Below, in pieces: positions 2,759 to 17,372 of a stretch of DNA of 64,000 bases (the stretch's first letter is position 1; each line of letters starts with the position of its first letter). The notes under the pieces were generated by a model. The model had not been told where the DNA came from. It saw only the letters and a program-made list of their open reading frames with translations, and searched no databases. Source of the DNA: a virus. The DNA is taken from positions 1 to 64,000 of IMG/VR virus record IMGVR_UViG_3300028388_002189; one strand, given 5' to 3'. A program made the position numbers and the translations under genes.

Positions 2759-3357
2759 GATGTAGGCAACCGCCCTACAACACTAACTTGCTTTTTATAC
2801 TTCCCACGGGGCAAACCGTACTCGATGACGCTATAATGCGGACTTGTATTTTTGCACTAACCAAGAGGTTGAACACCATCGTGATGACTATGAGTAGCAA
2901 ACAGGGTGTGAAGAGCCGATTTCGACCTATTTTGACCTTGAGGAGCACCTGTAAAAACTTTTCTGAGGTTAACCTTCGATATAAATATATTTCCGAATGT
3001 CAGGTTTCAGACACTTTTTACACCGCCTCTGCCTGCACAAACCCTCAAAATGCCGTTGTCAAAAACGACGACTATAGCGTCATCCATCGCGCTCGCTAGA
3101 CACCAACCGAGGGTATTTAAAGAGTAAGAGGAGGGTCTGAGGTGTTTGATTGGGTGTATTTGAGTGAGTGTACGTTTAGAGTGTGTGACGTAGAGTCTTA
3201 TGTGTATGTGGGGTGTATACTTTGTATATGATAATGTTTGTTTAGCGGTGCTGTGGGTGTATATATTCTTTATACTTCATGGGGGAGGGTGTACTCTACG
3301 CGCTCATATGTCTATGGGGTATCGTATGAATATGTATAGGGGAGTTATTTTAATATT

Positions 3358-3981
3358 GTGAGTATATATGACCTTACGCGCCGCCATGCGCGAATTTGTC
3401 TTGAAGGTGAACCTGGTAGTAACCTTGGCGCGTTTGTGCATCACCTCGCCTCGATCTATACAGCACCGTTTAGTTGCTGGGAGAGAGGTTCTATGAGCCA
3501 TACCTTCTTAGACGGTATAGAGATGCCCTTCTCTGAATGGAAGGATTTGATTGATCTCTACCTTGATGAGTGGTGCCAATCGCCCAAAAATACAATAACC
3601 GCGATTGCGCCGACTAAACACTTTGTCTTCTATGAGCGTAGCGTTTGGTCTCTAGAAGTCTTGCTTAACTATAACTACTGCATATACGCCATAAGTAACG
3701 CTGACTATTTAGCCGCGCTTCATCACTTGAACAATCGGCTACAGGATGAAGAATACCCAGAGGTGATTGTCTACTTTGAGCCTACTGAGTCTGAAAGCCC
3801 GCTGCCTAAACGATCACGACAACTTCTGCTCAACGCTTATAAGAAATGGCTGTCAAGCATGGAACGTCGAGGTGTTACTCTCATTGAAGTCAAAGATCGA
3901 CGAGCTAATGTATATGGATGGGAAGCGAACCTCGTAGCAGAGGTTGAGAATAGATCCCCCTTACCGCCATGTACACTATAA
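3358..3981 (+). CDS. Deoxynucleoside/thymidylate kinase-like protein, degenerate P-loop
   Basis: RICLEGEPGSNLG (P-loop position, no GKS/T), VFYERSVWS (ERS motif), PEVIVYF. Confidence 0.55.
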   Translation: MSIYDLTRRHARICLEGEPGSNLGAFVHHLASIYTAPFSCWERGSMSHTFLDGIEMPFSEWKDLIDLYLDEWCQSPKNTITAIAPTKHFVFYERSVWSLEVLLNYNYCIYAISNADYLAALHHLNNRLQDEEYPEVIVYFEPTESESPLPKRSRQLLLNAYKKWLSSMERRGVTLIEVKDRRANVYGWEANLVAEVENRSPLPPCTL

Positions 3982-4015
3982 AAACTTTTCAACAACTTTT
4001 CTGAAAGACGTAAAG

Positions 4016-4177
4016 ATGAAAAAACCCGCATCAAAATTTAACTACACAATACACAATCTTATTGCTCACCCCTTGATGGAAATTTTCCATCTTATAGGGT
4101 TTACTGAACTAGGTAATAAGATACATGACATGACATTACCAAGGGAAAGAGACACTGATGAAGATATTGAACGGTGA
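4016..4177 (+). CDS. Small phage protein (HNLIAHPLME motif)
   Basis: Start MKKPASK at 4016; His-spaced motif HNLIAHPLME...IHD resembles small phage proteins. Confidence 0.6.
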   Translation: MKKPASKFNYTIHNLIAHPLMEIFHLIGFTELGNKIHDMTLPRERDTDEDIER

Positions 4178-4250
4178 TAGTCTTGAAGTTCTCAAGTCTG
4201 TCGAAGAGGTGCGTGAAGCCTTACCCTTGTTTGAAGGTTTCGACATTTAG
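4158..4250 (+). pseudogene. Probable internally deleted N6/N4 DNA methyltransferase remnant
   Basis: 30-aa ORF MKILNGDSLEVLKSVEEVREALPLFEGFDI: a typical beta-class MTase N-terminus joined to an LPLF tail. Confidence 0.45.
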
Positions 4251-4289
4251 CGCTTGACTAACCTAAACTCAGTGTGCAGTTTATGGTTG

Positions 4290-4404
4290 TGCTGCCTTTG
4301 AACTTAACTTTTTTTGGTGAGTTCCTTGACGCACAAAGGCAGGTTCATTGATCCCATATACTATCTTGGTTATTTGGTTGTTAAACCAAGGTAGTGTATG
4401 GGGC
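4290..4404 (+). other. Two tandem stem-loops between convergent genes (terminator or small structured RNA)
   Basis: CTGCCTTTG...CAAAGGCAG stem; 19-bp stem CCCATATACTATCTTGGTT/AACCAAGGTAGTGTATGGG with two G-U pairs. Confidence 0.55.
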
Positions 4405-4418
4405 ACTTTTCAACAACT

Positions 4419-4874
4419 TTAGACTTTCTTGTCTCGGTCGACGTTAGGCAACCAAGCCTCAATGTCTGGTTCAAGAACAACATCTTCTGGCTTCTTCTTG
4501 GTAGCCACATTTTCTCCCATGAACAAAGAGAGTTTGTTGATCACTGCTGCTTGTAGGTCACTGATCTGATCGTTCTTGATTTGTAACTGTATCTGTGCAT
4601 CACGGAGTCGAGCGATTAATGCTGCTCTGTCTGCGTCAGACTTAGATAGCTTTTCGCGAAGTTCTTCGACTTCCGAAGGATCTCGACCGCTTGCTATTGC
4701 CATCATCGACGAGATACTACCTGTTAGTACACCTAAGATACCAACAAGAACGTCTCGGTTCTTTGGTTCAATCTTAATATAGCTTAAGAACAGGATAAGT
4801 CCCACCATGATGATGAGAAACACTACTGAGAACCACCATCCTCTTTTTGCTTTTATCTCTTGATAGTCTTCCAT
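4419..4874 (-). CDS. Two-TM membrane protein with C-terminal coiled coil
   Basis: Start MEDYQE overlaps the cyclase stop (TAATG); hydrophobic WWFSVVFLIIMVGLILFLSY and VLVGILGVLTGSISSMMAIA; heptad region follows. Confidence 0.75.
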   Translation of the reverse strand: MEDYQEIKAKRGWWFSVVFLIIMVGLILFLSYIKIEPKNRDVLVGILGVLTGSISSMMAIASGRDPSEVEELREKLSKSDADRAALIARLRDAQIQLQIKNDQISDLQAAVINKLSLFMGENVATKKKPEDVVLEPDIEAWLPNVDRDKKV

Positions 4875-5725
4875 TATTTGACTCCGATATCTTCTAGTAC
4901 GCCCTTCCAAGCGCTTTTGACGAGCTCTACAAAGAAGTCTATGTAATCCACCCACCAAAACAGCCAATCATGTCCCCACATTTTACGGACGTTTGGATTA
5001 CTAAGGGCAGGGTACGCTTCTATAAATAACCAAACGACTATAATAAACGCAGTTCTAGTAATGCACCACCAAATCCACTCTTTGATTGCACGATCTCTCG
5101 CTCTCTTTTTGATCTTCTTTGGACCGCCCAGTCGCTTAACCTTCTCTACACTAGGCGGAGGCTGAAGAGATTCTATTGTAGTCCCTACAGCATACAGATC
5201 TTGTGGCTGTTTTATGCCTTTGAACTTGTAAAGACCAACGCAAGCATATCTTGTGTTATCGGGCGTAAAGAGGTTCGTTCTCCCCCTCACTGCTCGCATA
5301 GCATCTCTTGTCAACAAGACTTGTCCTGCTCTGCAAACACTCATTGTCCGAGCAGTTATATTCTTGGCTAACCCTTCTAGTTCGATTCGCTTTGCACCCA
5401 CTCCGACATACAAGTCGTCTTGTACGACCTCAACTACCTTTGCCCAATGAACACCTACGCGAGTGTTTAGTTTAGTTTTTGGAGGGATCGTCAGTTGGTA
5501 GTGTAGGCAGAAGTTGACAGCATTGATGGGTCTTTCAAAAGACAACAAAAATCCATCTGATCGATCGATTTCTCTGCCTTGGAACTTGTAAAGCAAAGAC
5601 CTGGTTAGCTTGTCGTGGTACTGCAACCACTCAGCGGCTCTTCGTGCGCCAACCTTCTCAACGAAGGCAGTGCTTCCTATGATGTCTATTAGTACGATCG
5701 CTAAGACTCTTTCATTGAACTCCAT
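4874..5725 (-). CDS. Class III nucleotide (adenylate/guanylate-family) cyclase with C-terminal membrane anchor
   Basis: IDIIGST (metal Asp1), EIDRSDGFLLSF (Asp2), RVGVH, GLAKNITAR (N/R), GQVLLT, GLYKFKG; TM segment near the C-terminus. Start is ATG 5725 or GTG 5737. Confidence 0.88.
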   Translation of the reverse strand: MEFNERVLAIVLIDIIGSTAFVEKVGARRAAEWLQYHDKLTRSLLYKFQGREIDRSDGFLLSFERPINAVNFCLHYQLTIPPKTKLNTRVGVHWAKVVEVVQDDLYVGVGAKRIELEGLAKNITARTMSVCRAGQVLLTRDAMRAVRGRTNLFTPDNTRYACVGLYKFKGIKQPQDLYAVGTTIESLQPPPSVEKVKRLGGPKKIKKRARDRAIKEWIWWCITRTAFIIVVWLFIEAYPALSNPNVRKMWGHDWLFWWVDYIDFFVELVKSAWKGVLEDIGVK

Positions 5726-5963
5726 CGCTTGGCTCACAGACTATGCAGTCACAAATTTCAACTTGACAGCACGAACACATTAGGGAGCAATCACACTGAG
5801 AATCTTCACAGTTATGAGGAGGATGAACATAGCATGGGCACTGATCTGGACTTAAGCCACACAGAGCACAAATAGTCTCGTCGAGGTCTTCCATATCTTC
5901 AGTGAAGTCCCTAAGAGAATCTGTTATGTATTCATCTGTTTTTAGGTGGCTGAAGTCTTCCAT
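5712..5963 (-). CDS. Cys-rich small protein (acidic N-half, 13 Cys in C-half); metallothionein-like or peptide precursor
   Basis: GGAGG RBS; CALC..CPC..C..CDC..CSCC..CDC..C; overlaps the cyclase start. Confidence 0.7.
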   Translation of the reverse strand: MEDFSHLKTDEYITDSLRDFTEDMEDLDETICALCGLSPDQCPCYVHPPHNCEDSQCDCSLMCSCCQVEICDCIVCEPSDGVQ

Positions 5964-6145
5964 ATAACACCTCCACCAACATTATACTAGACATAGAAGA
6001 AAGAGACACTACACTTTTATGAGTCATATTTTTAACCTTAAAGTAACTTTTTACAAAAACAGGTACGATGGTATAGGTCTGATTGAAAAGTCTCCACAGA
6101 AGTCAAAATATGAACTCGTTTATGAGTTAAAGGATTAGGTAGAGT

Positions 6146-6754
6146 ATGAGGATAATGCTAGAAGGCGTTTGGGGATCCACTGTTGATCATTTACTTGAAG
6201 AGATCATTCGGAGACAAGAGTTCAACTACGACAAGGTTAGTGTATGTATTCCGCCTCCGCCCTTTAATGGAATACGCGGTTGGACTTACGCGCTTACAGA
6301 GAACATGAGACTTTGGCGCGAACATGACGAACAAAACAACAAGATCACTCTTTATCAACATGGTGTATGGTCTAGTTATGCATTCGCCAAAGCTCTTGTA
6401 GGCGATTCACAACTTGAACAAGATGAAATAGATCTATTCAGAGAGATGACTGAAGGTATCGCTGAAGTACACGAACTCCCAGACGTCATTGTCTTCTGCC
6501 ATGACTTCCCCAAGGCATCGTTACAAAGACTTGAAGAGAGAGAGTCAGTGTTGAAAGACTTGTCCATAGAGGATCTTCAACGAACAAGTACCTCTCTTAT
6601 TGAATGGCTTGATGTTATGATAAACAAGGGAGTCAAAGTGGTGGAAATCCCACCACCATACAAGAATGATATCGAGTCATGGACACGATCAGCACTTGTT
6701 ACACTCAAAGAAGTTTTCAACAACTATGGAGTTGACCATGCAAGCAGAGATTGA
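6146..6754 (+). CDS. Second deoxynucleoside-kinase-like protein, degenerate P-loop
   Basis: MRIMLEGVWGSTVD, GVWSSYAFAKAL, LPDVIVF, SLQRLEERE (LID-like); no P-loop Lys. Confidence 0.55.
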   Translation: MRIMLEGVWGSTVDHLLEEIIRRQEFNYDKVSVCIPPPPFNGIRGWTYALTENMRLWREHDEQNNKITLYQHGVWSSYAFAKALVGDSQLEQDEIDLFREMTEGIAEVHELPDVIVFCHDFPKASLQRLEERESVLKDLSIEDLQRTSTSLIEWLDVMINKGVKVVEIPPPYKNDIESWTRSALVTLKEVFNNYGVDHASRD

Positions 6755-7079
6755 CAAAGAAAAGGCGACGTATATTGGCTTTGTTGCATATGTAGCGACG
6801 TGTATGTGGTTTACAAGTCTGACCACAGCATTCCTCATACTGCCATTAGTGCTCTTTGCATGGGGATGGATCTTTTTACACGAACAACCGTATGCCGTTT
6901 GCTTGATCTCAAAAGACAAAGATAAGTGCCTCTCTGTTATGGAAGACCTTGCAGAGAGTCTAGGTGTTCAGAGGGTTATTATCTATGAAGCTAAAGGCGA
7001 AGATGACTATGAACATCTGGGCACGTTAGAGCTCCAAGATGAGATAGAGATAGATCTAGATCTAGAGGATCAAGACTAG
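6726..7079 (+). CDS. Membrane protein with acidic C-terminus
   Basis: Two hydrophobic stretches followed by an acidic domain. Confidence 0.6.
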   Translation: MELTMQAEIDKEKATYIGFVAYVATCMWFTSLTTAFLILPLVLFAWGWIFLHEQPYAVCLISKDKDKCLSVMEDLAESLGVQRVIIYEAKGEDDYEHLGTLELQDEIEIDLDLEDQD

Positions 7080-7156
7080 TCCATTAACTCAAGCATACAG
7101 ATGATTAAGAAGGACGCCATTACATAGATGACCATCAAGTTTTGTAAGGCAATCAT
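7076..7156 (-). CDS. Possible 26-aa hydrophobic micropeptide
   Basis: MIALQNLMVIYVMASFLIICMLELMD; ATGA overlap with the upstream stop. Confidence 0.35.
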   Translation of the reverse strand: MIALQNLMVIYVMASFLIICMLELMD

Positions 7157-7398
7157 CGTGACAGATACACGTTTCGTTGAGCAGTACGAATCTCATGATA
7201 ATCTAGATTAGTCATCCTATTGATCTCACAGGTGCCAACCTTCAAACGAGTGTCTGGCTTCTTCTTACTGACATAAGTCGTATAACCACTTTCGTTTTTG
7301 CAGTGATAAACCTCTACTACTTCTGTGTAGTACCAATGCAATATGACAGCGGAAACAACGCTAAAGATAAGAACACCAAAAATACTTTCTGCATCCAT
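7153..7398 (-). CDS. Small membrane-anchored protein
   Basis: N-terminal TM helix, two Cys. Confidence 0.6.
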   Translation of the reverse strand: MDAESIFGVLIFSVVSAVILHWYYTEVVEVYHCKNESGYTTYVSKKKPDTRLKVGTCEINRMTNLDYHEIRTAQRNVYLSR

Positions 7399-7401
7399 AA
7401 T

Positions 7402-9273
7402 CTAAATCTCCTCTTCCTCTTCCTCTACAACATAAACAGGCGTATATTCACCCATATACGCTCCTGCTATGTTGGAGTCAAACCATTCTACAGGGTGAAA
7501 CCTTGAGGATTCTTTGGGTGTTTGCTCATGACAAGTAAGATCACCATTTAACACGTCTTTTAATCTCTCCTCACCAATAACACAAAGAACGCAATCTTGA
7601 GCATAATGTACTCTACCCTTATCCACCGTAAGAATACATTTATCGAATTCTTTTGGTAATAGTATAGATTCGTTCATGAGTTCGGGGTGATCGCTAAATA
7701 GTTTACGTTCTCTATTTAGTTCAAGGCGCAGTGCTTCCTCTGGAGTAGTGCGATTCTGAGCAGCTTCTACTGCTACCTGTAAAGTAGGCGCAAAAGGTGT
7801 ACCGCCTTCCGATACACGCTTCTTAGTCTTCTTTATATACGTTTTTAAGTCCTCGCCTCTTTGAGAAGCAGGTGGCGTGGGCCAGTTTTGTTCTTTCTCG
7901 GGATATGACTTAAAAGCGTCTCGACGGTCTTGGAAATCTTTAAGTTCTGCTTTCAAGTCAATACCCTTTTCTTGAGCCTCTACTTCAACTTGTAGGTGCG
8001 TAGGAAAAATGCCTTTCCCGTTTGAGATTCTCTTCTTATTCTTAGAAAGATAATAAGTTACGTTATCGCCTCTTTGAGAAGTTGCGGGTGTGGTCCAGTT
8101 TAGGGTTTTCACTTCATCAGGTAAAAGAGCGCCATAACCTCGATCTTTGAACCTCGGCGATTGAGGACCTTTCCAATCTCTAGCAGTAGGCGTGGGCCAG
8201 GTCTCTCCACAAGGTGACGAAGGCTGTTGCGGCGGTGTCTGGCACGACTCCATTTCCCAACATTCGGAGTTCGTCTGTGCGATTGTCACAGGATTCATAC
8301 AACTCGGCATGGTCCAACCAACAGGAATACCCATCAGAGTCTCCACCCAACGAGGATTCAGCTTGCCTCGGTACCCCTCTTGGTGGTGTATCTGCCTCGG
8401 CATTGTGTCCAAACGATGCTTCCCGTCCTTCCTCGTTGGTATTTGGAAGTTCATCTCGATCTCGAAGCAGTCTCTCGCGATGGGTGTTGTCCACCTTACT
8501 TGATTCGGAAGATATGGACTGAATCCCCTTATTTCTTTTCGGCGGTCGACCCCCTTGTAATCTCTCGCTTGTGGAGTGTTCCAAGATAACCCTTGGTGGC
8601 TCAAATAGGTGTTGATCTGCTCCTCGTCCTTTTGGGTAAGCTGTACGGCGTCGACTTGTAGAGTCTTCGATATTTGATCGGATAAGATCAAGACCGTTCT
8701 GCCTGAGATCATCTCTGACACCAAGAATAAACACTCGTTTTCTTTGGTGTGGTGCGCCGACTTCAGACGCTGAGAATACGCCTGCCGTTGCTTTGTAACC
8801 CAACCTTTCCAACTCTCTAAGGACATGGAGCAGAACTGGTGTACCTTCGGGGTCGCTCCAATCGTCGCCTTTGAGTTTAGAACTGATGATGCCTTCGACG
8901 TTTTCAAAGAAAACAAGGGGAGGTCTCCCCAACTCTCTGATACCTCTGGCGATGTAGGGCCAGAGGTGTCTTGGGTCGTCACTTCCTTTGCGTTTTCCTG
9001 CGGCGCTAAATGGCTGACAAGGGAAGCCTCCACTGAGGATGTCAACCTTTCCATGATAGAGTTCCCAAGGGAACTTTTTAAGGTCTGAGAAAACAGGCGC
9101 GGGGTCGAGGAGCTTCGCTTCAATCTTCGAGACCAGGTTTTCGATGACGAAGGCTTCGATCTCCACAAAACAGACTGTTCTAACTGATCGGAGAGCTCTT
9201 GTGAGTCCGAGATCAATGCCTCCGTATCCTGCGCAAAGTGATATATGTGTAAGTTTTTTGGTAGTATCCACAT
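7402..9273 (-). CDS. Overprinted methyltransferase partner: motif IX-like segment and five W-x-T-P TRD-like modules, plus C-terminal small phage domain
   Basis: 623 codons open across the whole MTase gene in another frame; WNTPQARDYKG, WTTPIARD, LNPRWVETLMGIPVGWT, WPTPTARDWKG, WTTPATSQRG, WPTPPASQRG. Confidence 0.75.
   Translation of the reverse strand: MWILPKNLHIYHFAQDTEALISDSQELSDQLEQSVLWRSKPSSSKTWSRRLKRSSSTPRLFSQTLKSSLGNSIMERLTSSVEASLVSHLAPQENAKEVTTQDTSGPTSPEVSESWGDLPLFSLKTSKASSVLNSKATIGATPKVHQFCSMSLESWKGWVTKQRQAYSQRLKSAHHTKENECLFLVSEMISGRTVLILSDQISKTLQVDAVQLTQKDEEQINTYLSHQGLSWNTPQARDYKGVDRRKEIRGFSPYLPNQVRWTTPIARDCFEIEMNFQIPTRKDGKHRLDTMPRQIHHQEGYRGKLNPRWVETLMGIPVGWTMPSCMNPVTIAQTNSECWEMESCQTPPQQPSSPCGETWPTPTARDWKGPQSPRFKDRGYGALLPDEVKTLNWTTPATSQRGDNVTYYLSKNKKRISNGKGIFPTHLQVEVEAQEKGIDLKAELKDFQDRRDAFKSYPEKEQNWPTPPASQRGEDLKTYIKKTKKRVSEGGTPFAPTLQVAVEAAQNRTTPEEALRLELNRERKLFSDHPELMNESILLPKEFDKCILTVDKGRVHYAQDCVLCVIGEERLKDVLNGDLTCHEQTPKESSRFHPVEWFDSNIAGAYMGEYTPVYVVEEEEEEI
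8180..9271 (-). CDS. dcm: DNA (cytosine-5) methyltransferase catalytic polypeptide (motifs I-VIII and X)
   Basis: LCAGYGG (I), GGFPCQPFS (IV), ENV (VI), PHQRKRVF (VIII), LRMLGNGVVP (X); no recognisable TRD or motif IX in this frame. Confidence 0.92.
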   Translation of the reverse strand: MDTTKKLTHISLCAGYGGIDLGLTRALRSVRTVCFVEIEAFVIENLVSKIEAKLLDPAPVFSDLKKFPWELYHGKVDILSGGFPCQPFSAAGKRKGSDDPRHLWPYIARGIRELGRPPLVFFENVEGIISSKLKGDDWSDPEGTPVLLHVLRELERLGYKATAGVFSASEVGAPHQRKRVFILGVRDDLRQNGLDLIRSNIEDSTSRRRTAYPKGRGADQHLFEPPRVILEHSTSERLQGGRPPKRNKGIQSISSESSKVDNTHRERLLRDRDELPNTNEEGREASFGHNAEADTPPRGVPRQAESSLGGDSDGYSCWLDHAELYESCDNRTDELRMLGNGVVPDTAATAFVTLWRDLAHAYC

Positions 9274-9288
9274 TCTTTGTCCTTGTTA

Positions 9289-9483
9289 TTATTTCTGTGG
9301 GAATATGTATTGTAAGTGAACTCTGTGTAGAGTTGAGTTTGGTTTCTCAGACTTGATGATAGCATGACCGTCGTTATCTATTCTGGTAAGCACACCTCTT
9401 AAGATCGTCTGATCATCTAACACGGCAAACACTTGGGTGTTAAGGAACTTTAAGGCTTGAGAGTAAACCATTGTCAGTACCAA
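9289..9483 (-). CDS. Small hypothetical protein (beta-barrel-like)
   Basis: ORF in operon; LRGVLTRIDNDGHAII. Confidence 0.5.
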   Translation of the reverse strand: MVLTMVYSQALKFLNTQVFAVLDDQTILRGVLTRIDNDGHAIIKSEKPNSTLHRVHLQYIFPQK

Positions 9484-9866
9484 TCCTTGTCTTGATAGTT
9501 GTCTTGATATTCGTTGAAGAGATGAATATCAGTATGTAAGACATTCTTTGCCTTGAGCCATCGATCTCTCCAAGTCGAATCTTTGTCCCATGCTACATGA
9601 GTGCGGACTTCTTCATCTGTCATCTCTTGGTCATTCTCTTTGTGTAGTTGATATATGTGCCCTAACACTTCCATAGTAAGTCGGTAGTAGTGAAGTGCTG
9701 AGTACCAACCATTAGGGCACAATGCGCCTTTGTTTTCAGTAGCAATCCTATCCCACTCTTCTCGCTGAGAGTCTGTCAAAAGAGACCTCATGTGAACGTA
9801 ATGCTCTCTTACTTGATCATATGTAAAGGAAGCAGGGAGAGTCCTTGGGTATTTGTGCCCAATCAT
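9474..9866 (-). CDS. Hypothetical protein
   Basis: 130-aa ORF in series. Confidence 0.65.
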   Translation of the reverse strand: MIGHKYPRTLPASFTYDQVREHYVHMRSLLTDSQREEWDRIATENKGALCPNGWYSALHYYRLTMEVLGHIYQLHKENDQEMTDEEVRTHVAWDKDSTWRDRWLKAKNVLHTDIHLFNEYQDNYQDKDWY

Positions 9867-9974: not shown

Positions 9975-10853
9975 TTAATTATTTTCTTCAGCCTCTTCTT
10001 CTTCGCGTAGTTCTTCAATGATCTCTTGTGCTAACTGAGCCATAGGTCCTCTGTACTGAGCGGTAAGTTTAACACCTGCTGCAAAAGGACAATCTAAGAA
10101 AGCATCACTGTGTACTAACTTCCACAACCCTGTCTCGTCTCGCTTTAGCCCAGAGTCAACTTGGTCGGTATCACCCATAACAATCAAGGTGCAATGATTA
10201 CCTACGCGACTGATCGCAGTAAGTAGTTCATGTGGCGTTGTGTTTTGTGCCTCATCAATAATAACTACTGCGTTCTCAAAGTGCTGACCTCGTAGCAACT
10301 CAAATGGCTTGAATAGTATCCGACCTTCCTCTTCCAACTGAAAGAGGTGGTGCTCAAAGGTTTCGCCAATGATCTTCTTCATCGCGGTGAAGTAAGAATC
10401 CATATAGCCCTCTAACTTCTCTCGATGGTCGCCTGGTATTGCTGCAATCGCGTTGCTCCGTAACCCAACAAAAGTTGTGGGTTTACACAAAACAAGGTCT
10501 TTACCGTTCCTAAATACTTCATTTAGTGCGTAAGCAAGAGCAACTGTAGTCTTACCTGTGCCCGCTGCCCCAAGCGCTACAAATAAGTCTAAGTTCTTCA
10601 ACCCCCAAAACATACAGGCTTGAGCGCCGTCTTTAGGCTTAAAACCTTGGTATACTAACTCTTTAGTTTTCAACAACTCTAGGCAATCTTGGTCGTCGTT
10701 GTAGTAGGCTAAAGCGCTCTGTTTACCATTTGGAGTCTTTAGGCAGAAGAAGTAGTTAGGTTTTACCTTTGCTTCTTTATTCTCTAGTGTCCCTTGCTTG
10801 TAAATAAGATCGATCTCTCTTGGTTCAACGGTCAGTTGTGCCAAATCAAACAT
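9975..10853 (-). CDS. phoH: PhoH-family ATPase
   Basis: GAAGTGKT, LRGQHF, IIDEAQN, MGDTDQVD. Confidence 0.93.
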   Translation of the reverse strand: MFDLAQLTVEPREIDLIYKQGTLENKEAKVKPNYFFCLKTPNGKQSALAYYNDDQDCLELLKTKELVYQGFKPKDGAQACMFWGLKNLDLFVALGAAGTGKTTVALAYALNEVFRNGKDLVLCKPTTFVGLRSNAIAAIPGDHREKLEGYMDSYFTAMKKIIGETFEHHLFQLEEEGRILFKPFELLRGQHFENAVVIIDEAQNTTPHELLTAISRVGNHCTLIVMGDTDQVDSGLKRDETGLWKLVHSDAFLDCPFAAGVKLTAQYRGPMAQLAQEIIEELREEEEAEENN

Positions 10854-13015: not shown

Positions 13016-15997
13016 CTAGAGTTCACAAGTCCCGCCTGTACAAGCTAACGTTTGCGCACCTTCTCCTTGATCGTACTTTTCAAAGTCTGACAACTTAGTA
13101 AAGTCGATCTTTGGGAAGTCCTTCATGGCATCTTCATACTCATCTTTTGAGATCTCCTCATAAGGAGCAAGTTTGTAGTTTCCGCCATCATATGGGAGGA
13201 ATGACAAACCGACTACCTCATCGAAGTGATCCCAAACCCACTGTCCAACTCGATCCCAATCTTCGTCCTTGACATAGATAGTCGCAGATTGGTTGTGCCC
13301 TCGTTCCTTTAGCCAACCTTTCATGATAGTGAGGTATCTCTCCATCTGATCAAAAGAAGTCTCATCATCTCTAGTCATAGAACCTTCGGGTGACTTGATA
13401 GGGAATCGTGCTACCCAAGTCTTGACCTGTGAAGACTCCACTCCTTCTTGACCAACCTCTGGGAACATAGGGACCCCTTGACTTTTCAACAACTCTGAAA
13501 GGGGGTCGTCAGCACTGACGCGCACATGGCGGAAGTAGTATTCGCTGTAACGAGGATGGAACCCACTCGCACAATCCACCATTTGCGAGGTGTTACCCGA
13601 TGGTTTCCCACAAGTAACCGCCGCAGGAACGTTGATACCAAGCCGAGCAGACATCTCTTGAGCAGTAGCGACAGCGACATCGTTTAGAACAGATAGCGTT
13701 TCAATGTTGTTCATTAACTGAGGATTGTCACACTGACCTGTGAGGTCTACACCGATTAAGCGATCCTCTTCACAGAGTTCACGCCATGCGGGACGTAGAT
13801 ACGGGAACTTGGTGAAGGTCGCCTGGACGCACCCAATAATCGTTGCGAGTCGGACTTTCTCTTTGAGCGTATCGAGGGTGTCTTCGGGACGGACAACAAC
13901 AGCGCTCAAGTTGCAGAACTGACCACCGCCGCCTTCACCCGTCCAAGGGTCGTTTGACTCTTTGAAGCGGAGTCCGATCTCATGACAGTTATGTACAACG
14001 AGACCGTTAGCAATAAAGGAGTGTGTTGTCTCTTCTGTGAGATCATACACTGTTTCTACACCTAAAGGTTCTAACCCGATAAAGTCAGCAACAAACTTAT
14101 CTGCGTTTGGCTTACGCTTGTAAGAATCGATGATAGACAAGAGAGCCTCTTGCTTGTCATGTCGCATAAACCCTATACGATTTGCAAAAGTCACTAGACT
14201 CTTACAGGAGATCGCTAACTCAGCAGACTCTTTACAGTAGTATTCCTTTAGACCTCCTTTGCCGTCGGGCATTAATCGGAAGCCTTCCTTCATACGACCT
14301 TGATAGATCTTTGAGTAAACATTGAAGTTCAAAAGAAGCTGCTGAACAGCTTGGAGATGCTCCACTTTAGTGGAATGTAGACGAATAGAAGCACCCTTCT
14401 TTTGATTACCAAGGACACAGCCATCGGCAGAGAATAGTGCAGATAGATAACCCTTTTGACATTCTTCAGTACCTTGCCAAACAAACTCTGGGAGAACTGT
14501 CCTGTCTTCAGTAGAGAGGAATTCTCTCAAAGAAGAAGTTTGAATAGAGTCTCTTTGTGTATCTTCATAAGTAGCAACAGAAACTTCATGCCCGACTGAC
14601 GCTTCAATAGCGTTCTTAAACCACTCAGTAAGTTTTCTGTCTTCGTGGTAGAAATATAGTCTAGGCGCATTATCCGCAACAGTACCATCGCCAGCATACC
14701 AACCTGCAATAGCACCCAAGCCTTCGGTACCTTGTTTACCGAATAAGCCTTCTTTGTTACAGATATGGATTTTATCACCCATCTCAAGTTCTTGAGCTTC
14801 TACCCAACCTCTTGAAGTCATTACTCTGTGATCTGCTGTCAGTTTTACTTCATAACCTTGCTTAGTCGTTAATCTGAAAACTTCACGCTCTCCTGTTACA
14901 AATGCCCCTTTATCAGAAGTATAGCCGTTCTCTTCAGTACCAAACCTAGAATCAATCACAAGTTGTTTAGGCGTACCTAAGAAGTCTTTGATTTGGACAA
15001 GACCGTCTTCTGTCATCACACGGGTATCGCCTGTTACACATGGATTCGATCGGCACTCTCCTTTAGGACGAGGTGCGTACTTGTGCCAGTTATCAATAGA
15101 GAACCCTCGCTCACCAGAACCACTCTCAGCAAGTTGTTTCCATTCTCGATCAAACACTTCTTTAGTCGGTCGATCAGCAAAGTAAGCAGAGTTATTACTC
15201 ATGTAGCGCTTGAGAGGGAAACTACCCCTCTTCCAATCCTTAGCGTGACGCATTGACTCGTCATCGGGATCAGAGAAAGAGATCATAGCAGAGCGCCTAA
15301 CCCCTCCCACAACAACCACTTCTGCTAATGCACAACAGATGTCGTAAACTTCTAAAGTTTTTAACTGTCTGCCCTCTGCATCTTTGATGGTTTGGATAAT
15401 GAATTCGATCGCGTCTTTTAGAGGTTGTGGACCACTCGCACGACCACCCTTGGTCTTTAGTCGTGATCCCCTAGGACGGACTAACGAGTAATCAATCTCG
15501 ATACTGCCGTACCCCTTCCAAGCATGGGTAACGACAAAGAAAACAGCATCTGCCCAACCTACAGAGCTATCACCTACTTGGTGCTTAGCGGTCTTAGACT
15601 CATCGAACTCAGCGATAAGTGGCAGTTTGTTAACAAACTTACTCTCTACAGAGAACCCAACCCCTGTGCCCTGCATAAGCACATAGATTAGTTCTGAGAA
15701 AGCCTTCAAGTTATCGATGGGCAAGAACGAACAGTTGTAGATAGCTGTATTATCGATAGAGGCAAAGTCACCGCTTGCCCATAGCGAACGCATAGAAGGC
15801 ATGATTTGGTGGTGGGTGATCAAGTCGTGAATCATCTCTTTGTCTTCTTCAGACACAGGTTGATCTTTTAGTAAGAAGTCGGTGACCCGATCCACAGTCT
15901 CTACCCAATTTTCACGTCGATTTTCTTTTTCAAGCCATCGAGCATATGATCGTAGATAGACAAGTTCACCTAAAGCGTTGTTGAAGTATTCAGTCAT
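13016..15997 (-). CDS. nrdJ: Class II (B12-dependent) ribonucleotide reductase, intein-containing
   Basis: PSMRSLW, YNCSF, GTGVGFS, GGRASGP, GGVRRSA, NP[intein]CHEI, FCNLS, KPSGNTS, C-terminal ACTGGTC. Start MTEYFNN at 15997. Confidence 0.92.
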   Translation of the reverse strand: MTEYFNNALGELVYLRSYARWLEKENRRENWVETVDRVTDFLLKDQPVSEEDKEMIHDLITHHQIMPSMRSLWASGDFASIDNTAIYNCSFLPIDNLKAFSELIYVLMQGTGVGFSVESKFVNKLPLIAEFDESKTAKHQVGDSSVGWADAVFFVVTHAWKGYGSIEIDYSLVRPRGSRLKTKGGRASGPQPLKDAIEFIIQTIKDAEGRQLKTLEVYDICCALAEVVVVGGVRRSAMISFSDPDDESMRHAKDWKRGSFPLKRYMSNNSAYFADRPTKEVFDREWKQLAESGSGERGFSIDNWHKYAPRPKGECRSNPCVTGDTRVMTEDGLVQIKDFLGTPKQLVIDSRFGTEENGYTSDKGAFVTGEREVFRLTTKQGYEVKLTADHRVMTSRGWVEAQELEMGDKIHICNKEGLFGKQGTEGLGAIAGWYAGDGTVADNAPRLYFYHEDRKLTEWFKNAIEASVGHEVSVATYEDTQRDSIQTSSLREFLSTEDRTVLPEFVWQGTEECQKGYLSALFSADGCVLGNQKKGASIRLHSTKVEHLQAVQQLLLNFNVYSKIYQGRMKEGFRLMPDGKGGLKEYYCKESAELAISCKSLVTFANRIGFMRHDKQEALLSIIDSYKRKPNADKFVADFIGLEPLGVETVYDLTEETTHSFIANGLVVHNCHEIGLRFKESNDPWTGEGGGGQFCNLSAVVVRPEDTLDTLKEKVRLATIIGCVQATFTKFPYLRPAWRELCEEDRLIGVDLTGQCDNPQLMNNIETLSVLNDVAVATAQEMSARLGINVPAAVTCGKPSGNTSQMVDCASGFHPRYSEYYFRHVRVSADDPLSELLKSQGVPMFPEVGQEGVESSQVKTWVARFPIKSPEGSMTRDDETSFDQMERYLTIMKGWLKERGHNQSATIYVKDEDWDRVGQWVWDHFDEVVGLSFLPYDGGNYKLAPYEEISKDEYEDAMKDFPKIDFTKLSDFEKYDQGEGAQTLACTGGTCEL
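13988..15040 (-). mobile_element. Intein (351 aa) with LAGLIDADG homing endonuclease
   Basis: Begins CVTGDT, block B LTADH, GWYAGDG and ALFSADG motifs, ends VYDL...VHN followed by Cys. Confidence 0.95.
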
Positions 15998-17372
15998 TTT
16001 CAGACTCCAAAGGCGAGACATCAATAATAGTCTCTGAGGTAGAAGGTTTTGTGCCTCCACCTGCCCTTCCGTAACCTCCAAACAATCTGGAGATTACACC
16101 CGATCCTTTTGCTTTTATCATTACTTCATCACTACCAACAGGAGACGCGATCTCTCTTGCGTCTTTCATGAGCTTCGTCAAAGTCTCCATCTCTGATGAT
16201 ACCTCGGGATTGAGGCCTGCGTTTTGCATCCGTTCAGACATGGAAGCAAACAAGACTCTTTCGCCCTGTATTTGTATGACTTTATTGAGAAGCTGTTGTA
16301 TGTCTTCTGGCGTATCTACTTTCGGAGTAGACGATAGTTTGCAGTTAGAATCTGGCTCAAATACAGGACAAGTTGCACTGAGATAACATGAGTTACAATT
16401 CCGTAAGTATGAACCAAGATCACTTGAACTTGCAAGGTCAGTTTTTGAGATCACAGAGATCTGCTTGTCCTTTTCGTTGTTCATAGTTTTTTCTTTCTTT
16501 GTCCAATACCCACCGACACGACTCGCGTCTGCTGATAGGGCACCCCACTGAGAGAGATTCCACTTATCAACTGTTATACGGTCATCGCTCAACAAGAGAT
16601 CATGGTCAAGACCTAAAGTTTCACATTTAGCTTTTAGCTTCTGTCGTATCGATTTTCCTGCACCTTTAGACCCATGATAAGTAACAAGTTTTAGGTTGCC
16701 GACATACTCAAAGGTCACGCCATACTTAGACCCGCTAATCCAGTTAGAACTACTTGAACTCCAAAAAAGCCCAGAGAGAAGCGTTTCTTTATCAACCCTA
16801 CCCCATCTATGCGTTTTAACGTTAAACGATGTTAGAGAGGCAATATAAGGCTTCATTTGAACCTTTACGTCTTCAAGGTCGAGGTGGTCGGGTATACCTA
16901 GATAAGAATATTGGTGAACAACCTCTTCAAGTTCATCCAAAGAGGACAAAGACCACCCTATCTTAAAACTTTTCAACAACTTTTTCCAACGGTCAGAAGC
17001 ACCAATCGGTAGGTAAGGCAACCATATAACATCGACTAAGTGTTCGATACCTCTACAGAAGTCTAGGTACAGCCTAACTTTTGCGTCGATCTTACACAGA
17101 GCTTTCTCCTGTGCTTCTTCGATAGAACCATGCTTCTGAACTGCCTTTTCAGTCCTTTGGCTAGGCGCACCCCATAGATACTTCACCCTAGACCATGTAG
17201 AACTTAAGTCGTACTCAACCATCAACAGGTCAAATCGATCTCGGTGATCCTCAAACCAACTAGCGTCTAAACTCTTGAAGACTGAATAATCTAAAACAAC
17301 GTCTTTCACTTCTGAGTCTAGAATACTTTGAAGTCTGTCTTCTCTGACAACTCCACTAAGACATACCCTCAT
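15990..17372 (-). CDS. DpdA/TGT-like TIM-barrel protein (apparently degenerate) with C-terminal Cys4 domain
   Basis: KTHRWG and SSSSNWISGSKYG align with the HGFG and DSTSW..RYG segments of TGT-like phage proteins; CNSC..TC..NC zinc site. Confidence 0.45.
   Translation of the reverse strand: MRVCLSGVVREDRLQSILDSEVKDVVLDYSVFKSLDASWFEDHRDRFDLLMVEYDLSSTWSRVKYLWGAPSQRTEKAVQKHGSIEEAQEKALCKIDAKVRLYLDFCRGIEHLVDVIWLPYLPIGASDRWKKLLKSFKIGWSLSSLDELEEVVHQYSYLGIPDHLDLEDVKVQMKPYIASLTSFNVKTHRWGRVDKETLLSGLFWSSSSSNWISGSKYGVTFEYVGNLKLVTYHGSKGAGKSIRQKLKAKCETLGLDHDLLLSDDRITVDKWNLSQWGALSADASRVGGYWTKKEKTMNNEKDKQISVISKTDLASSSDLGSYLRNCNSCYLSATCPVFEPDSNCKLSSTPKVDTPEDIQQLLNKVIQIQGERVLFASMSERMQNAGLNPEVSSEMETLTKLMKDAREIASPVGSDEVMIKAKGSGVISRLFGGYGRAGGGTKPSTSETIIDVSPLESEND

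What the first reader, a model, noticed from the sequence alone, without database searches (positions are those of the whole stretch)
4419..5963. Phage-encoded cyclic-nucleotide cassette: Cys-rich peptide + membrane-anchored class III cyclase + 2TM protein
Seen: three overlapping minus-strand genes (TAATG junction at 4874; peptide stop overlaps the cyclase start) inserted against the surrounding + strand genes. The cyclase keeps both metal-binding Asp residues and the N...R transition-state pair. Its base-specificity loop reads EIDRSDG rather than K..GD (adenylate) or E..GD (guanylate), and it has Glu at the second specificity position. Known: Pycsar defence pairs a class III pyrimidine cyclase with a TM effector. 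From memory, the EID(R/K)(S/T)DGFL and GAK..E.EGL motifs resemble the cyclase domain of the putative peptide-modification-system cyclase (TIGR04510), which occurs next to peptide precursors. Inference: this could be an undescribed phage signalling, superinfection-exclusion or host-manipulation module making a non-canonical cNMP, with the Cys-rich peptide as regulator or metal sensor. Unlike PycTM, the 2TM partner shows no cNMP-binding domain.
Basis: partly seen in the sequence, partly recalled or inferred. Interest (0 to 1): 0.85.

Follow-up and report, generated by a model that had tools for sequence, protein, structure and literature searches.

The report
Phage membrane cyclase with holin-like partner
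An uncultured marine phage carries a membrane-anchored enzyme that probably makes a cyclic-nucleotide signal (most likely cGMP), always paired with a small membrane protein whose relatives sit among cell-bursting genes, and here preceded by an optional cysteine-rich mini-protein; nothing has been tested at the bench.

Summary
Three overlapping minus-strand genes lie at 4419-5963 of an 81-kb IMG/VR myovirus-like record: an 83-aa peptide with 12 invariant Cys and 2 invariant His, a 283-aa cyclase with one C-terminal membrane helix, and a 151-aa two-helix membrane protein with a coiled-coil-like tail.

The conserved unit is two genes, not three. The 2-TM gene follows the cyclase in 78 of 78 testable viral loci. 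The peptide is present in only 13 of 81, although every testable peptide gene (14 of 14) precedes a cyclase.

The cyclase keeps all catalytic residues. Its closest solved folds are the mycobacterial cyclases Ma1120 and Rv1900c. By sequence it is closest to the N-terminal domain of TIGR04510 (E 1.4e-40). I show that TIGR04510 includes the layout of Xanthomonas XC_0250, a proven GTP-to-cGMP cyclase, so cGMP is the best guess rather than an exotic cNMP.

Cyclase-less relatives of the 2-TM partner (0 of 160 loci carry a cyclase) often abut an M15 endolysin (42 of 160 within 150 nt) and a holin, so the partner belongs to a lysis-cassette family.

It is not Pycsar: PADLOC gives no PycC match and the partner has no cNMP-binding domain. 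My searches found no paper describing it. The scan had already found this module on other DNA. The role is untested.

The parts
5712..5963 (-). 83-aa Cys-rich mini-protein with an acidic N-terminal part followed by 12 invariant Cys and 2 invariant His; an optional accessory gene
   Evidence: ORF. Alignment of 11 homologues has C32, C35, C42, H47, H50, C52, C57, C59, C63, C65, C66, C71 and C73 invariant. dN 0.25-0.46 with dS saturated. 14 of 14 testable homologous loci are followed directly by the cyclase. No family match in Pfam, NCBIfam, PADLOC or PHROGs. The AF2 model is unusable (pLDDT 56.7).
4874..5725 (-). 283-aa membrane-anchored class III nucleotidyl cyclase (start ATG at 5725; the GTG at 5737 is the longest ORF)
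   Evidence: TIGR04510 N-terminal domain E 1.4e-40 and LipJ cyclase 9.3e-15. Pfam Guanylate_cyc E 3.9e-4, just under its cut-off. AF2 pLDDT 89.7. Foldseek top hits are Ma1120 and Rv1900c, E about 1e-13, TM 0.87-0.90 by target. 690 database homologues.
5171..5725 (-). Catalytic cyclase-homology domain (about aa 1-185): D14, D57 (metals), D54/E115 (specificity positions), N122, R126, K169
   Evidence: Invariant columns; residue-by-residue alignment to 1ybt and 4wp8; fold match.
5018..5077 (-). Single hydrophobic transmembrane helix of the cyclase (about aa 217-236). It is preceded by the conserved basic linker LQPPPS..KVKRLGGPKKIKSRxRDRK and followed by a variable Trp-rich tail of about 45 aa
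   Evidence: Kyte-Doolittle windows of 1.6 or more only at aa 217-218 outside the catalytic beta-strand; long helix 214-242 in the AF2 model; linker conservation.
4419..4874 (-). 151-aa 2-TM protein with a cytoplasmic coiled-coil-like tail; the obligate partner of the cyclase
   Evidence: Directly downstream in 78 of 81 viral loci, and the other 3 loci end at the cyclase. Start overlaps the cyclase stop by 4 nt in 40 of 78. 1467 database homologues at 62-100% identity among the 120 listed. TM1 about aa 12-35 and TM2 about aa 42-62. 49 invariant columns in 31 sequences.
5964..6145 (.). Divergent intergenic region between the cassette and the + strand dNK-like gene. It has a GGAGG ribosome-binding site 9 nt before the peptide ATG; the promoter was not identified
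   Evidence: Sequence. The consensus scan found no - strand sigma-70-like site and no terminator, with counts at or below the shuffled expectation.

Best explanation
This is a phage-specific two-gene membrane signalling module, here with an optional third gene. The cyclase is a class III nucleotidyl cyclase with a complete catalytic set. A single C-terminal helix tethers it to the cytoplasmic face of the host inner membrane. As a dimer it most probably converts GTP to cGMP; cAMP is the second choice. Its gene is translationally coupled to a 2-TM protein with a cytoplasmic coiled-coil-like tail. That protein belongs to a wider phage family whose cyclase-less members sit next to endolysin and holin genes, and its layout (two helices plus a C-terminal coiled coil) is that of the validated mycobacteriophage D29 holin gp11. 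I infer that the two proteins work together in the membrane. Either oligomerisation of the holin-like partner controls pairing of the cyclase, or the cyclase product modulates the partner, so that a phage-made second messenger is tied to membrane state or lysis timing. The 83-aa Cys/His-rich protein is probably a metal-binding (zinc or iron-sulfur) accessory regulator. It was acquired in one cyclase clade and is always translated just ahead of the cyclase. Shown: gene structure, coupling, conservation, catalytic residues, fold, homology to a proven cGMP synthase domain, and lysis-cassette context of the partner's relatives. Inferred: product, physical interaction, direction of control, biological role.
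For: Active-site residues are invariant in 17 phage homologues and map onto Rv1900c and Ma1120. The AF2 model has pLDDT 89.7 and matches the class III fold. For the product: TIGR04510 N-terminal domain E 1.4e-40. True TIGR04510 members, over the 400-bit cut-off, are among the cellular relatives. In L143 the best such member (1237 bits, 875 aa) lies between a cNMP_binding+GGDEF gene and a SagB/nitroreductase gene. This is the XC_0250/XC_0249 layout of PMC3770947, and the six residues the paper names fit this ORF with a +7 offset (my reading). It is 38% identical to the phage cyclase over 193 aa (E 2e-33), and the paper reports cGMP synthesis from GTP with no activity on ATP. For the partner: adjacent in 78 of 78 testable loci, with overlapping stop and start. 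It occurs in three or more genome types: a complete 85-kb genome, a complete 312-kb genome, and contigs with the terminase-portal context in 68 of 81 loci. For the lysis link: 0 of 160 loci of distant partner relatives hold a cyclase. 56 of 160 hold an M15 endolysin-like ORF (Pfam Peptidase_M15_3, phrog_894), 42 within 150 nt, and 23 of 160 hold a phrog_3427-like holin. D29 gp11 architecture comes from PMC9671378 (passages read). For the peptide: invariant Cys/His, confined to one starred 20-row clade of the cyclase tree, and 14 of 14 next to a cyclase.
Against: No biochemical or genetic data exist for any member. In the window and in the 81 cyclase loci, no M15 endolysin or phrog_3427-type holin lies near the module (0 hits). 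Four endolysin Pfam families were not found in the 81-kb record, so this copy is not in a recognisable lysis cassette. In most loci it sits between the terminase and portal genes. 104 of 160 loci of partner relatives showed no M15 endolysin; other lysin types were not tested. The partner matches no named holin family (only phrog_9990, unknown function, E 0.0068). The partner has no known cNMP-binding domain, and none was found in six cassette-bearing records, two of them complete, so no receptor is identified. For the product: the phage enzyme has the canonical Asn where the XC_0250-type protein has Pro. The nearest solved structures are adenylyl cyclases. Two acidic residues at the specificity positions match neither the Lys/Asp (AC) nor the Glu/Cys (GC) rule, which I cite from recall of class III cyclase literature.
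Confidence: 0.5

Rival explanations
1. Host take-over signal. The phage makes cGMP or cAMP to drive host cNMP receptors (CRP-family regulators, cNMP-GGDEF proteins) and reprogram metabolism, motility or biofilm during infection. The 2-TM protein only anchors or regulates the enzyme and has nothing to do with lysis.
For: No phage-encoded cNMP-binding or GAF domain was found in the window's record, and no cNMP-binding domain in five other cassette-bearing records, so a host receptor is the simplest target. In Xanthomonas the homologous cyclase domain feeds a cNMP-GGDEF protein (PMC3770947; layout seen). The module lies outside lysis cassettes. A pelagiphage paper reports adenylate cyclase genes as putative regulators in phage curli clusters (PMC9599517, passages read).
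Against: It does not explain why a 2-TM partner from a lysis-cassette family is kept in 78 of 78 loci at 57-79% identity. It also does not explain why the enzyme is membrane-tethered. No CsgG was found in six records carrying the module, so it is not the curli context. The host is unknown.
Confidence: 0.25
2. Pycsar-like exclusion or abortive-infection module carried by the phage. The cyclase senses a competing phage and makes a cNMP that triggers the 2-TM protein to damage the membrane.
For: The layout of a cyclase plus a small TM protein resembles PycC plus PycTM. There is a weak, non-significant likeness of the 2-TM region to SLATT (E 0.08-0.09) and to a CARF_TM model (E 0.061).
Against: PADLOC gave no match for the cyclase at E up to 1. 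The partner has no cNMP-binding domain. In a pattern-based scan of 185,579 species genomes, all 54 relatives were at most 44% identical and covered the cyclase domain only, so this is not a bacterial defence gene. It is absent from GenBank phages (tblastn found no match). It often sits between the terminase and portal genes of small phages.
Confidence: 0.12
3. A peptide-modification (RiPP-like) system, as the TIGR04510 name suggests, with the Cys-rich peptide as the precursor.
For: The cyclase domain is of the TIGR04510 type. True TIGR04510 genes lie next to the TIGR04511 SagB-like dehydrogenase. A Cys-rich peptide is encoded directly upstream here.
Against: The phage protein has only the first 200 or so of the 814 model positions and scores 139.6 bits against a 400-bit cut-off. 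No dehydrogenase gene is adjacent. The peptide is missing from 68 of 81 loci. The characterised relative is a cGMP synthase (PMC3770947).
Confidence: 0.03
4. The cyclase domain is a non-catalytic scaffold or receptor (pseudo-enzyme) in a membrane complex.
For: The Pfam score is just below the gathering threshold, and the specificity loop is unusual.
Against: Every catalytic residue is invariant across 59-100% identical homologues, which is not expected of a dead enzyme.
Confidence: 0.05

Closest known systems
XC_0250-type guanylate cyclase of Xanthomonas campestris (NCBIfam TIGR04510, 'putative peptide modification system cyclase')
   Same: The N-terminal cyclase domain is 38% identical over 193 aa (E 2e-33). 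It shares the IDRSDG loop, the GAK..E.EGLAK segment and the Arg. It is the best family match (E 1.4e-40). The isolated domain makes cGMP from GTP and does not use ATP (PMC3770947, passages read).
   Different: The cellular proteins are 830-890 aa with a TPR-rich C-terminal part and no membrane anchor. They lie beside a SagB-like dehydrogenase and, in L143, a cNMP-GGDEF gene. The phage protein is 283 aa, scores 139.6 bits against a 400-bit cut-off, ends in a TM helix, keeps the canonical Asn where the cellular one has Pro, and has a 2-TM partner.
Mycobacterial class III adenylyl cyclases Ma1120 (PDB 4WP8, 5D0E) and Rv1900c/LipJ (PDB 1YBT, 1YBU)
   Same: These are the closest solved folds (Foldseek E about 1e-13, TM 0.87-0.90 by target, 22-25% identity) and the best PDB sequence matches (E 2.3e-10 and 1.5e-9). 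They share the short cyclase-homology domain and the metal Asp pair.
   Different: They are soluble or fused to other domains, and they are adenylyl cyclases. Ma1120 has Lys where the phage enzyme has D54. No membrane tail and no 2-TM partner.
Pycsar (PycC cyclase plus PycTM or PycTIR effector)
   Same: A class III-type cyclase gene sits next to a small membrane protein gene.
   Different: No PADLOC match for the cyclase. The partner lacks a cNMP-binding domain. The genes are viral, not bacterial. The cyclase itself is membrane-anchored.
Mycobacteriophage D29 holin gp11 (2 TM helices plus C-terminal coiled coil)
   Same: The overall layout of the partner matches: short N-terminus, two TM helices, and a long C-terminal helical, coiled-coil-like region. 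PMC9671378 (passages read) says that this region in gp11 matters for oligomerisation and lysis timing. Cyclase-less relatives of the partner sit beside endolysin and holin genes.
   Different: No sequence similarity was tested or shown. The partner matches no holin family in PHROGs or Pfam. In the window it is not next to an endolysin.

Membership tests
Class III nucleotidyl cyclase (Pfam PF00211 Guanylate_cyc) | Cyclase-homology-domain fold | tested here: met
   AF2 pLDDT 89.7. Foldseek found 188 PDB matches at E up to 0.001; the 29 matches listed are all adenylyl or guanylyl cyclases.
Class III nucleotidyl cyclase (Pfam PF00211 Guanylate_cyc) | Two metal-binding Asp, the transition-state Asn and Arg, and the phosphate Lys | tested here: met
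   D14, D57, N122, R126 and K169 are invariant in 17 homologues. D14, D57, N122 and R126 align with the corresponding positions of 1ybt. The assignment of K169 rests on the recalled KGK motif.
Class III nucleotidyl cyclase (Pfam PF00211 Guanylate_cyc) | Score over Pfam's gathering threshold | tested here: not met
   20.5 bits against 21.9 (E 3.9e-4). Some homologues carry a precomputed PF00211 hit.
Class III nucleotidyl cyclase (Pfam PF00211 Guanylate_cyc) | Cyclase activity and dimeric active site | not testable with these tools
TIGR04510 (putative peptide modification system cyclase) | N-terminal cyclase domain of this subtype | tested here: met
   E 1.4e-40, residues 10-202 against model positions 4-204.
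TIGR04510 (putative peptide modification system cyclase) | Full-length match over the 400-bit cut-off, including the TPR-rich C-terminal 600 positions | tested here: not met
   139.6 bits, and only positions 4-204 of 814 are matched. The protein ends in a TM helix instead.
TIGR04510 (putative peptide modification system cyclase) | Neighbouring TIGR04511 SagB-like dehydrogenase | tested here: not met
   Present next to true members. The window's neighbours are the peptide and the 2-TM protein, neither with an NCBIfam match of that kind.
Pycsar | Cyclase matching PycC models | tested here: not met
   PADLOC returned 0 families at E up to 1.
Pycsar | Effector with a cNMP-binding domain fused to TM or TIR | tested here: not met
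   No cNMP_binding match in the partner or anywhere in the record.
Holin (for the 2-TM partner) | Small membrane protein with one or more TM helices and a cytoplasmic C-terminal tail | tested here: met
   Two hydrophobic helices followed by about 90 aa of charged, heptad-like sequence. The coiled coil is inferred, not computed.
Holin (for the 2-TM partner) | Gene in a lysis cassette next to an endolysin | tested here: not met
   Not met for this gene or for any of the 81 cyclase loci. Met for distant relatives: 42 of 160 lie within 150 nt of an M15 endolysin-like ORF.
Holin (for the 2-TM partner) | Match to a named holin family | tested here: not met
   Only phrog_9990 (unknown function; E 0.0068 for the window protein, 2.8e-7 for relative P0279).
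Holin (for the 2-TM partner) | Timed lethal hole formation | not testable with these tools
   Needs expression experiments.
Zinc-ribbon or metallothionein-like metal-binding mini-protein (for the peptide) | Conserved Cys/His ligand sets and a metal-dependent fold | tested here: inconclusive
   12 Cys and 2 His are invariant. The AF2 model has pLDDT 56.7, and Atlas structure rows for zinc-ribbon or RING clusters have TM below 0.5. No family match.

The most novel reading that the evidence does not exclude
Diverse lytic marine phages (85-kb myovirus-like, 312-kb jumbo and small terminase-portal types) make their own cGMP-type second messenger at the host membrane. A holin-family partner couples this signal to the decision when to lyse. 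That would be a virus-encoded second-messenger lysis clock, with a Cys-rich metal or redox sensor as an add-on input in one lineage.
Probability: 0.25. Interest if true: 0.85.

Novelty: new variant of a known kind. Interest (0 to 1): 0.6.

Why it matters
Cyclic nucleotides are known in phage biology as bacterial defence signals (Pycsar, CBASS) that phages destroy. Here phages themselves appear to synthesise a cyclic mononucleotide: a conserved, widespread marine phage module (290 viral contigs matched). My literature searches found no description of it. If the product is cGMP and the partner is a holin-type protein, this would be the first link between a second messenger and phage lysis or membrane control. 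It would also give a simple pair of proteins for testing how class III cyclases are regulated through a membrane tether. The tie to XC_0250 further suggests that the 'peptide modification system cyclase' label of TIGR04510 covers a cGMP synthase.

Tried and rejected
The three-gene cassette as the conserved unit is rejected: the peptide is in 13 of 81 loci.

Pycsar membership is rejected.

A curli/T8SS context like that of the pelagiphage adenylate cyclases (PMC9599517) was not found. No CsgG over the cut-off appeared in six records. Whether that paper's cyclase is the same family could not be checked, because its sequences would be in supplements, which are closed.

A phage-encoded cNMP receptor was not found (PF00027 in six records, PF01590 in one).

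The promoter and terminator scan of 4000-6400 gave nothing on the minus strand, and counts were at or below the shuffled expectation.

The peptide fold came out at AF2 pLDDT 56.7, so I ran no fold search on it. Atlas leads to zinc-ribbon and RING clusters are all TM below 0.5. The Atlas search for the partner returned only its own viral family.

SLATT likeness of the partner is not significant (E 0.08-0.09).

GenBank phages: tblastn with the cyclase found no match. blastn of 3000-9500 found only stretches of about 100 nt.

Expression: no RNA holder was listed, and the one DNA holder has a small share (0.18). I did not lay reads.

Methyltransferase remnant at 4158-4250: tblastn E 0.17, so it is only a lead.

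dN/dS could be computed for one pair only (0.077). dS was saturated in the other 17.

Of the endolysin types near relatives of the partner, I tested only the M15 type. I searched protein lengths in 'near' mode only, so I make no claim about fused or split forms beyond the long cellular TIGR04510 proteins.

The supplementary alignment of PMC3770947 (its Figure S1) could bear on the residue mapping and was not seen.
Full report
WHAT IS THERE. The window is the first 64 kb of an 81,258-bp IMG/VR virus record, which CheckV rates 65% complete. Its large ORFs include a tail sheath, a baseplate J protein, a tape-measure-like protein, a family A DNA polymerase, a class II ribonucleotide reductase with an intein, and a collagen-repeat protein. 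No GenBank phage is close: the polymerase is at most 35% identical to anything there.

At 4419-5963 lie three overlapping minus-strand genes:
- an 83-aa peptide (5712-5963);
- a cyclase, whose real start is the ATG at 5725, where all homologues begin, giving 283 aa (4874-5725);
- a 151-aa membrane protein (4419-4874).

The peptide's stop lies 14 nt inside the cyclase gene. The cyclase stop and the next start share a base (TAATG). The immediate neighbours are on the + strand, but most of the window runs on the - strand.

THE CYCLASE. Family searches:
- Pfam Guanylate_cyc scores just under its threshold (E 3.9e-4).
- NCBIfam gives the N-terminal 200 positions of TIGR04510 at E 1.4e-40, and the LipJ cyclase at 9.3e-15.
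- PADLOC and PHROGs give nothing.

A profile of 17 homologues finds Rv1900c/LipJ (E 2.3e-10) and Ma1120 (1.5e-9) in the PDB. An AF2 model built on 60 sequences has pLDDT 89.7, and Foldseek ranks the same two enzymes first (E about 1e-13, TM 0.87-0.90 by target).

In 283-aa numbering, D14, D57, N122, R126 and K169 are invariant among the phage proteins. The alignments put D54 on the Lys of Ma1120 and the Asn of Rv1900c, E115 on the Asp of Rv1900c, N122 on its His, and R126 on its Arg. That these are the specificity and transition-state positions is established knowledge of class III cyclases, which I recalled rather than took from a call. After the catalytic domain come a strongly conserved basic linker, one hydrophobic helix (about aa 217-236) and a variable Trp-rich tail.

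WHAT IT PROBABLY MAKES. I tested that lead as follows.
- The pattern-based scan of species genomes returned 54 relatives, all at most 44% identical and covering the cyclase domain only. They are mostly Rubrivivax and Xanthomonadaceae.
- Three of them lie in genomes with true TIGR04510 members over the 400-bit cut-off, at the same places. These sit next to the TIGR04511 SagB-like dehydrogenase.
- In 121 genomes of that family, 76 have a member over the cut-off.
- The best-scoring one (1237 bits, 875-aa ORF, locus L143) lies directly beside a cNMP_binding+GGDEF gene of 347 aa and a nitroreductase/SagB-type gene.

This is the layout that An et al. describe for XC_0250 (886 aa, cyclase domain plus TPR) and XC_0249 (PMC3770947, passages read). 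All six residues the paper names (D41, D71, L73, A150, L157, A161) fall on the same letters in the L143 ORF with an offset of +7 (my reading). The phage cyclase is 38% identical to this protein over 193 aa (E 2e-33). It shares GR.IDRSDG.LL.FERPI and VGAK..E.EGLAK...AR, but has Asn where the cellular protein has Pro.

The paper reports that residues 1-220 convert GTP to cGMP and do not act on ATP. So cGMP is the best homology-based guess. The acidic pair D54/E115 fits neither textbook rule, so cAMP or another NTP cannot be excluded. My rough odds are cGMP 45%, cAMP 25%, other 15%, inactive 15%.

HOW CONSERVED IS THE CASSETTE. The cyclase has 690 database homologues at E up to 0.001, and the best 120 are 59-100% identical and 260-307 aa long. 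A scan of IMG/VR found 290 relatives, of which 80 were kept, plus L002. L002 and L010 are the same contig.

In these 81 loci the 2-TM gene follows the cyclase in 78. The other three loci end at the cyclase. In L014 the two genes are about 760 nt apart; I did not examine that gap. The start overlaps the cyclase stop by 4 nt in 40 of 78.

The peptide is present in 13 of 81. On a cyclase tree of 66 distinct rows, all 11 peptide-bearing rows lie in one starred 20-row clade, and none lie in the other 46 rows. The tree needs at least two and most parsimoniously four gains or losses. Conversely, a scan with the peptide alignment found 15 loci. In all 14 with sequence downstream, the cyclase follows directly. 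The large protein database held only four peptide homologues.

dN is 0.21-0.46 for all three genes while synonymous sites are saturated, so the small ORF is a real gene.

GENOMIC SETTINGS. 68 of 81 loci carry a relative of the L008 457-aa protein, and 47 also carry a Mu-type portal. The L008 protein matches phrog_5653, terminase large subunit, at E 5.2e-7. In L008 the pair sits exactly between the two. The other 13 loci include the window's relatives L002 and L003, and L004 from a complete 312-kb record. L002 comes from a complete 84,945-bp genome with terminal repeats and has the same flanking dNK-like gene. So the pair moves between unrelated phage genomes as a unit.

THE PARTNER. It has 1467 homologues at E up to 0.001, and the 120 listed are 62-100% identical. 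49 columns are invariant in 31 sequences. It has two hydrophobic helices (about aa 12-35 and 42-62), followed by RDPSEVEEL and a long heptad-like segment. The coiled coil is my inference.

A profile search of 1.84 billion representatives found only 123 proteins at E up to 0.001, 17 of them at 1e-30 or better. The weaker ones are 110-205-aa proteins with the same layout. I fetched 160 viral loci for two groups of these distant relatives. None of the 160 has a cyclase within 3.5 kb. The commonest neighbour cluster is an M15 peptidase (Pfam Peptidase_M15_3 E 3.1e-12; phrog_894 endolysin E 9.9e-22). Another is a phrog_3427 holin (E 2e-18). By HMM, 56 of 160 loci have the endolysin-like ORF, 42 of them within 150 nt of the 2-TM gene. 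23 of 160 have the holin-like ORF, and 17 have both.

The validated D29 holin gp11 has the same plan of two helices plus a C-terminal coiled coil that affects oligomerisation and timing (PMC9671378, passages read). Against a direct lysis role here: neither HMM hits any of the 81 cyclase loci or the window's whole record. Four endolysin Pfam families are also not found in that record, which may be incomplete.

THE PEPTIDE. It has an acidic N-terminal part, followed by 12 invariant Cys and 2 invariant His. No family matches it. The AF2 model is poor (pLDDT 56.7), and Atlas structural rows pointing to zinc-ribbon and RING clusters are all below TM 0.5. A metal-binding accessory regulator of the cyclase is a reasonable but untested reading.

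MECHANISM. I commit to the following. The cyclase dimer, tethered at the inner face of the membrane, makes cGMP (or another cNMP). It acts together with the holin-family partner, so that the signal is tied to membrane state or lysis timing. The peptide adds a metal or redox input in one lineage.
- Shown: structure, coupling, conservation, intact active site, homology to a proven cGMP synthase domain, and lysis context of the partner's relatives.
- Inferred: product, physical contact, direction of control, role.
- Receptor: none is known. No cNMP-binding domain was found in six records, two of them complete, and no GAF domain in the window's own record.
- Rivals: host take-over through host receptors (0.25), Pycsar-like exclusion (0.12), a dead enzyme (0.05) and a RiPP system (0.03).

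NOVELTY. Seven full-text searches found no paper describing a phage-encoded class III cyclase with such a partner. 'TIGR04510' occurs in no held paper, and six phrases for a phage cyclase occur in none. PMC9599517 mentions adenylate cyclase genes in pelagiphage curli clusters. The module here is not in that setting, and I could not compare the sequences. The library lacks most subscription journals.

Earlier agents of this scan reported the same pair on other DNA. I re-tested their leads on XC_0250 and on the lysis context. I add the peptide's strict one-way linkage and single-clade distribution. I also add the L143 evidence that joins TIGR04510 to the XC_0250 layout.

I rate it a new variant of a known kind, built from known parts in an undescribed combination and host (a virus), with interest 0.6.

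TOOLS NOT AVAILABLE. The look-up of encoding contigs, complex prediction and the viral fold library were closed, so no co-fold and no check against known viral structures was made.

Noticed in passing
window 13016-16081 (-): Class II (B12-type) ribonucleotide reductase interrupted by an intein with a LAGLIDADG homing-endonuclease domain (Pfam Intein_splicing 7.2e-16, LAGLIDADG_3 2.9e-18).
   Followed up: no
window 36734-39580 (-): 948-aa protein with five stretches of collagen triple-helix repeats (Pfam Collagen 3.4e-30), probably a tail fibre.
   Followed up: no
window 4158-4250 (+): A 30-aa ORF convergent with the 2-TM gene resembles the N-terminus of the 490-aa DNA methyltransferase that occupies the same position in the complete relative L002. 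The tblastn match is 59% over 17 aa at E 0.17. It may be a deletion remnant, but the support is weak.
   Followed up: partly
window 5944-6047: About 100 nt just upstream of, and overlapping, the peptide start match genes annotated as DNA methyltransferase in Mycobacterium, Gordonia and Rhodococcus phages at 73-75% identity (E 2e-7 to 7e-6; 9 records). Unexplained.
   Followed up: no
window 3358-3981 (+) and 6146-6754 (+): Two + strand genes flank the cassette. The second has weak deoxynucleoside or thymidylate kinase matches (Pfam dNK 1.9e-4, phrog_761 4.8e-4). A homologue of it also flanks the cassette in L002.
   Followed up: partly
L014 about 3825-4586: In this one viral locus the cyclase and its 2-TM partner are separated by about 760 nt instead of overlapping. 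I did not examine the inserted sequence.
   Followed up: no
L143 3407-8741 (unnamed Xanthomonadaceae-family genome G013): The best-scoring TIGR04510 gene lies between a cNMP_binding+GGDEF gene and a SagB/nitroreductase-type gene. So the 'peptide modification system' label and the published cGMP signalling pair XC_0250/XC_0249 seem to describe the same locus.
   Followed up: partly
L131 3659-6898 (Rubrivivax sp. RP6-9): A 1079-aa protein joins the same cyclase-domain subtype (TIGR04510 positions 5-204, 168.7 bits) to an AfsR-like/TPR region. One Rubrivivax MAG contributes 9 of the 54 loci, which suggests a large paralogous expansion.
   Followed up: no
window 7402-9273 (-) and 9975-10853 (-): A 623-aa protein with a DNA methyltransferase match (phrog_1008, 4.1e-16) and a PhoH-like protein (phrog_170, 2.3e-45) lie just beyond the cassette.
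   Followed up: no
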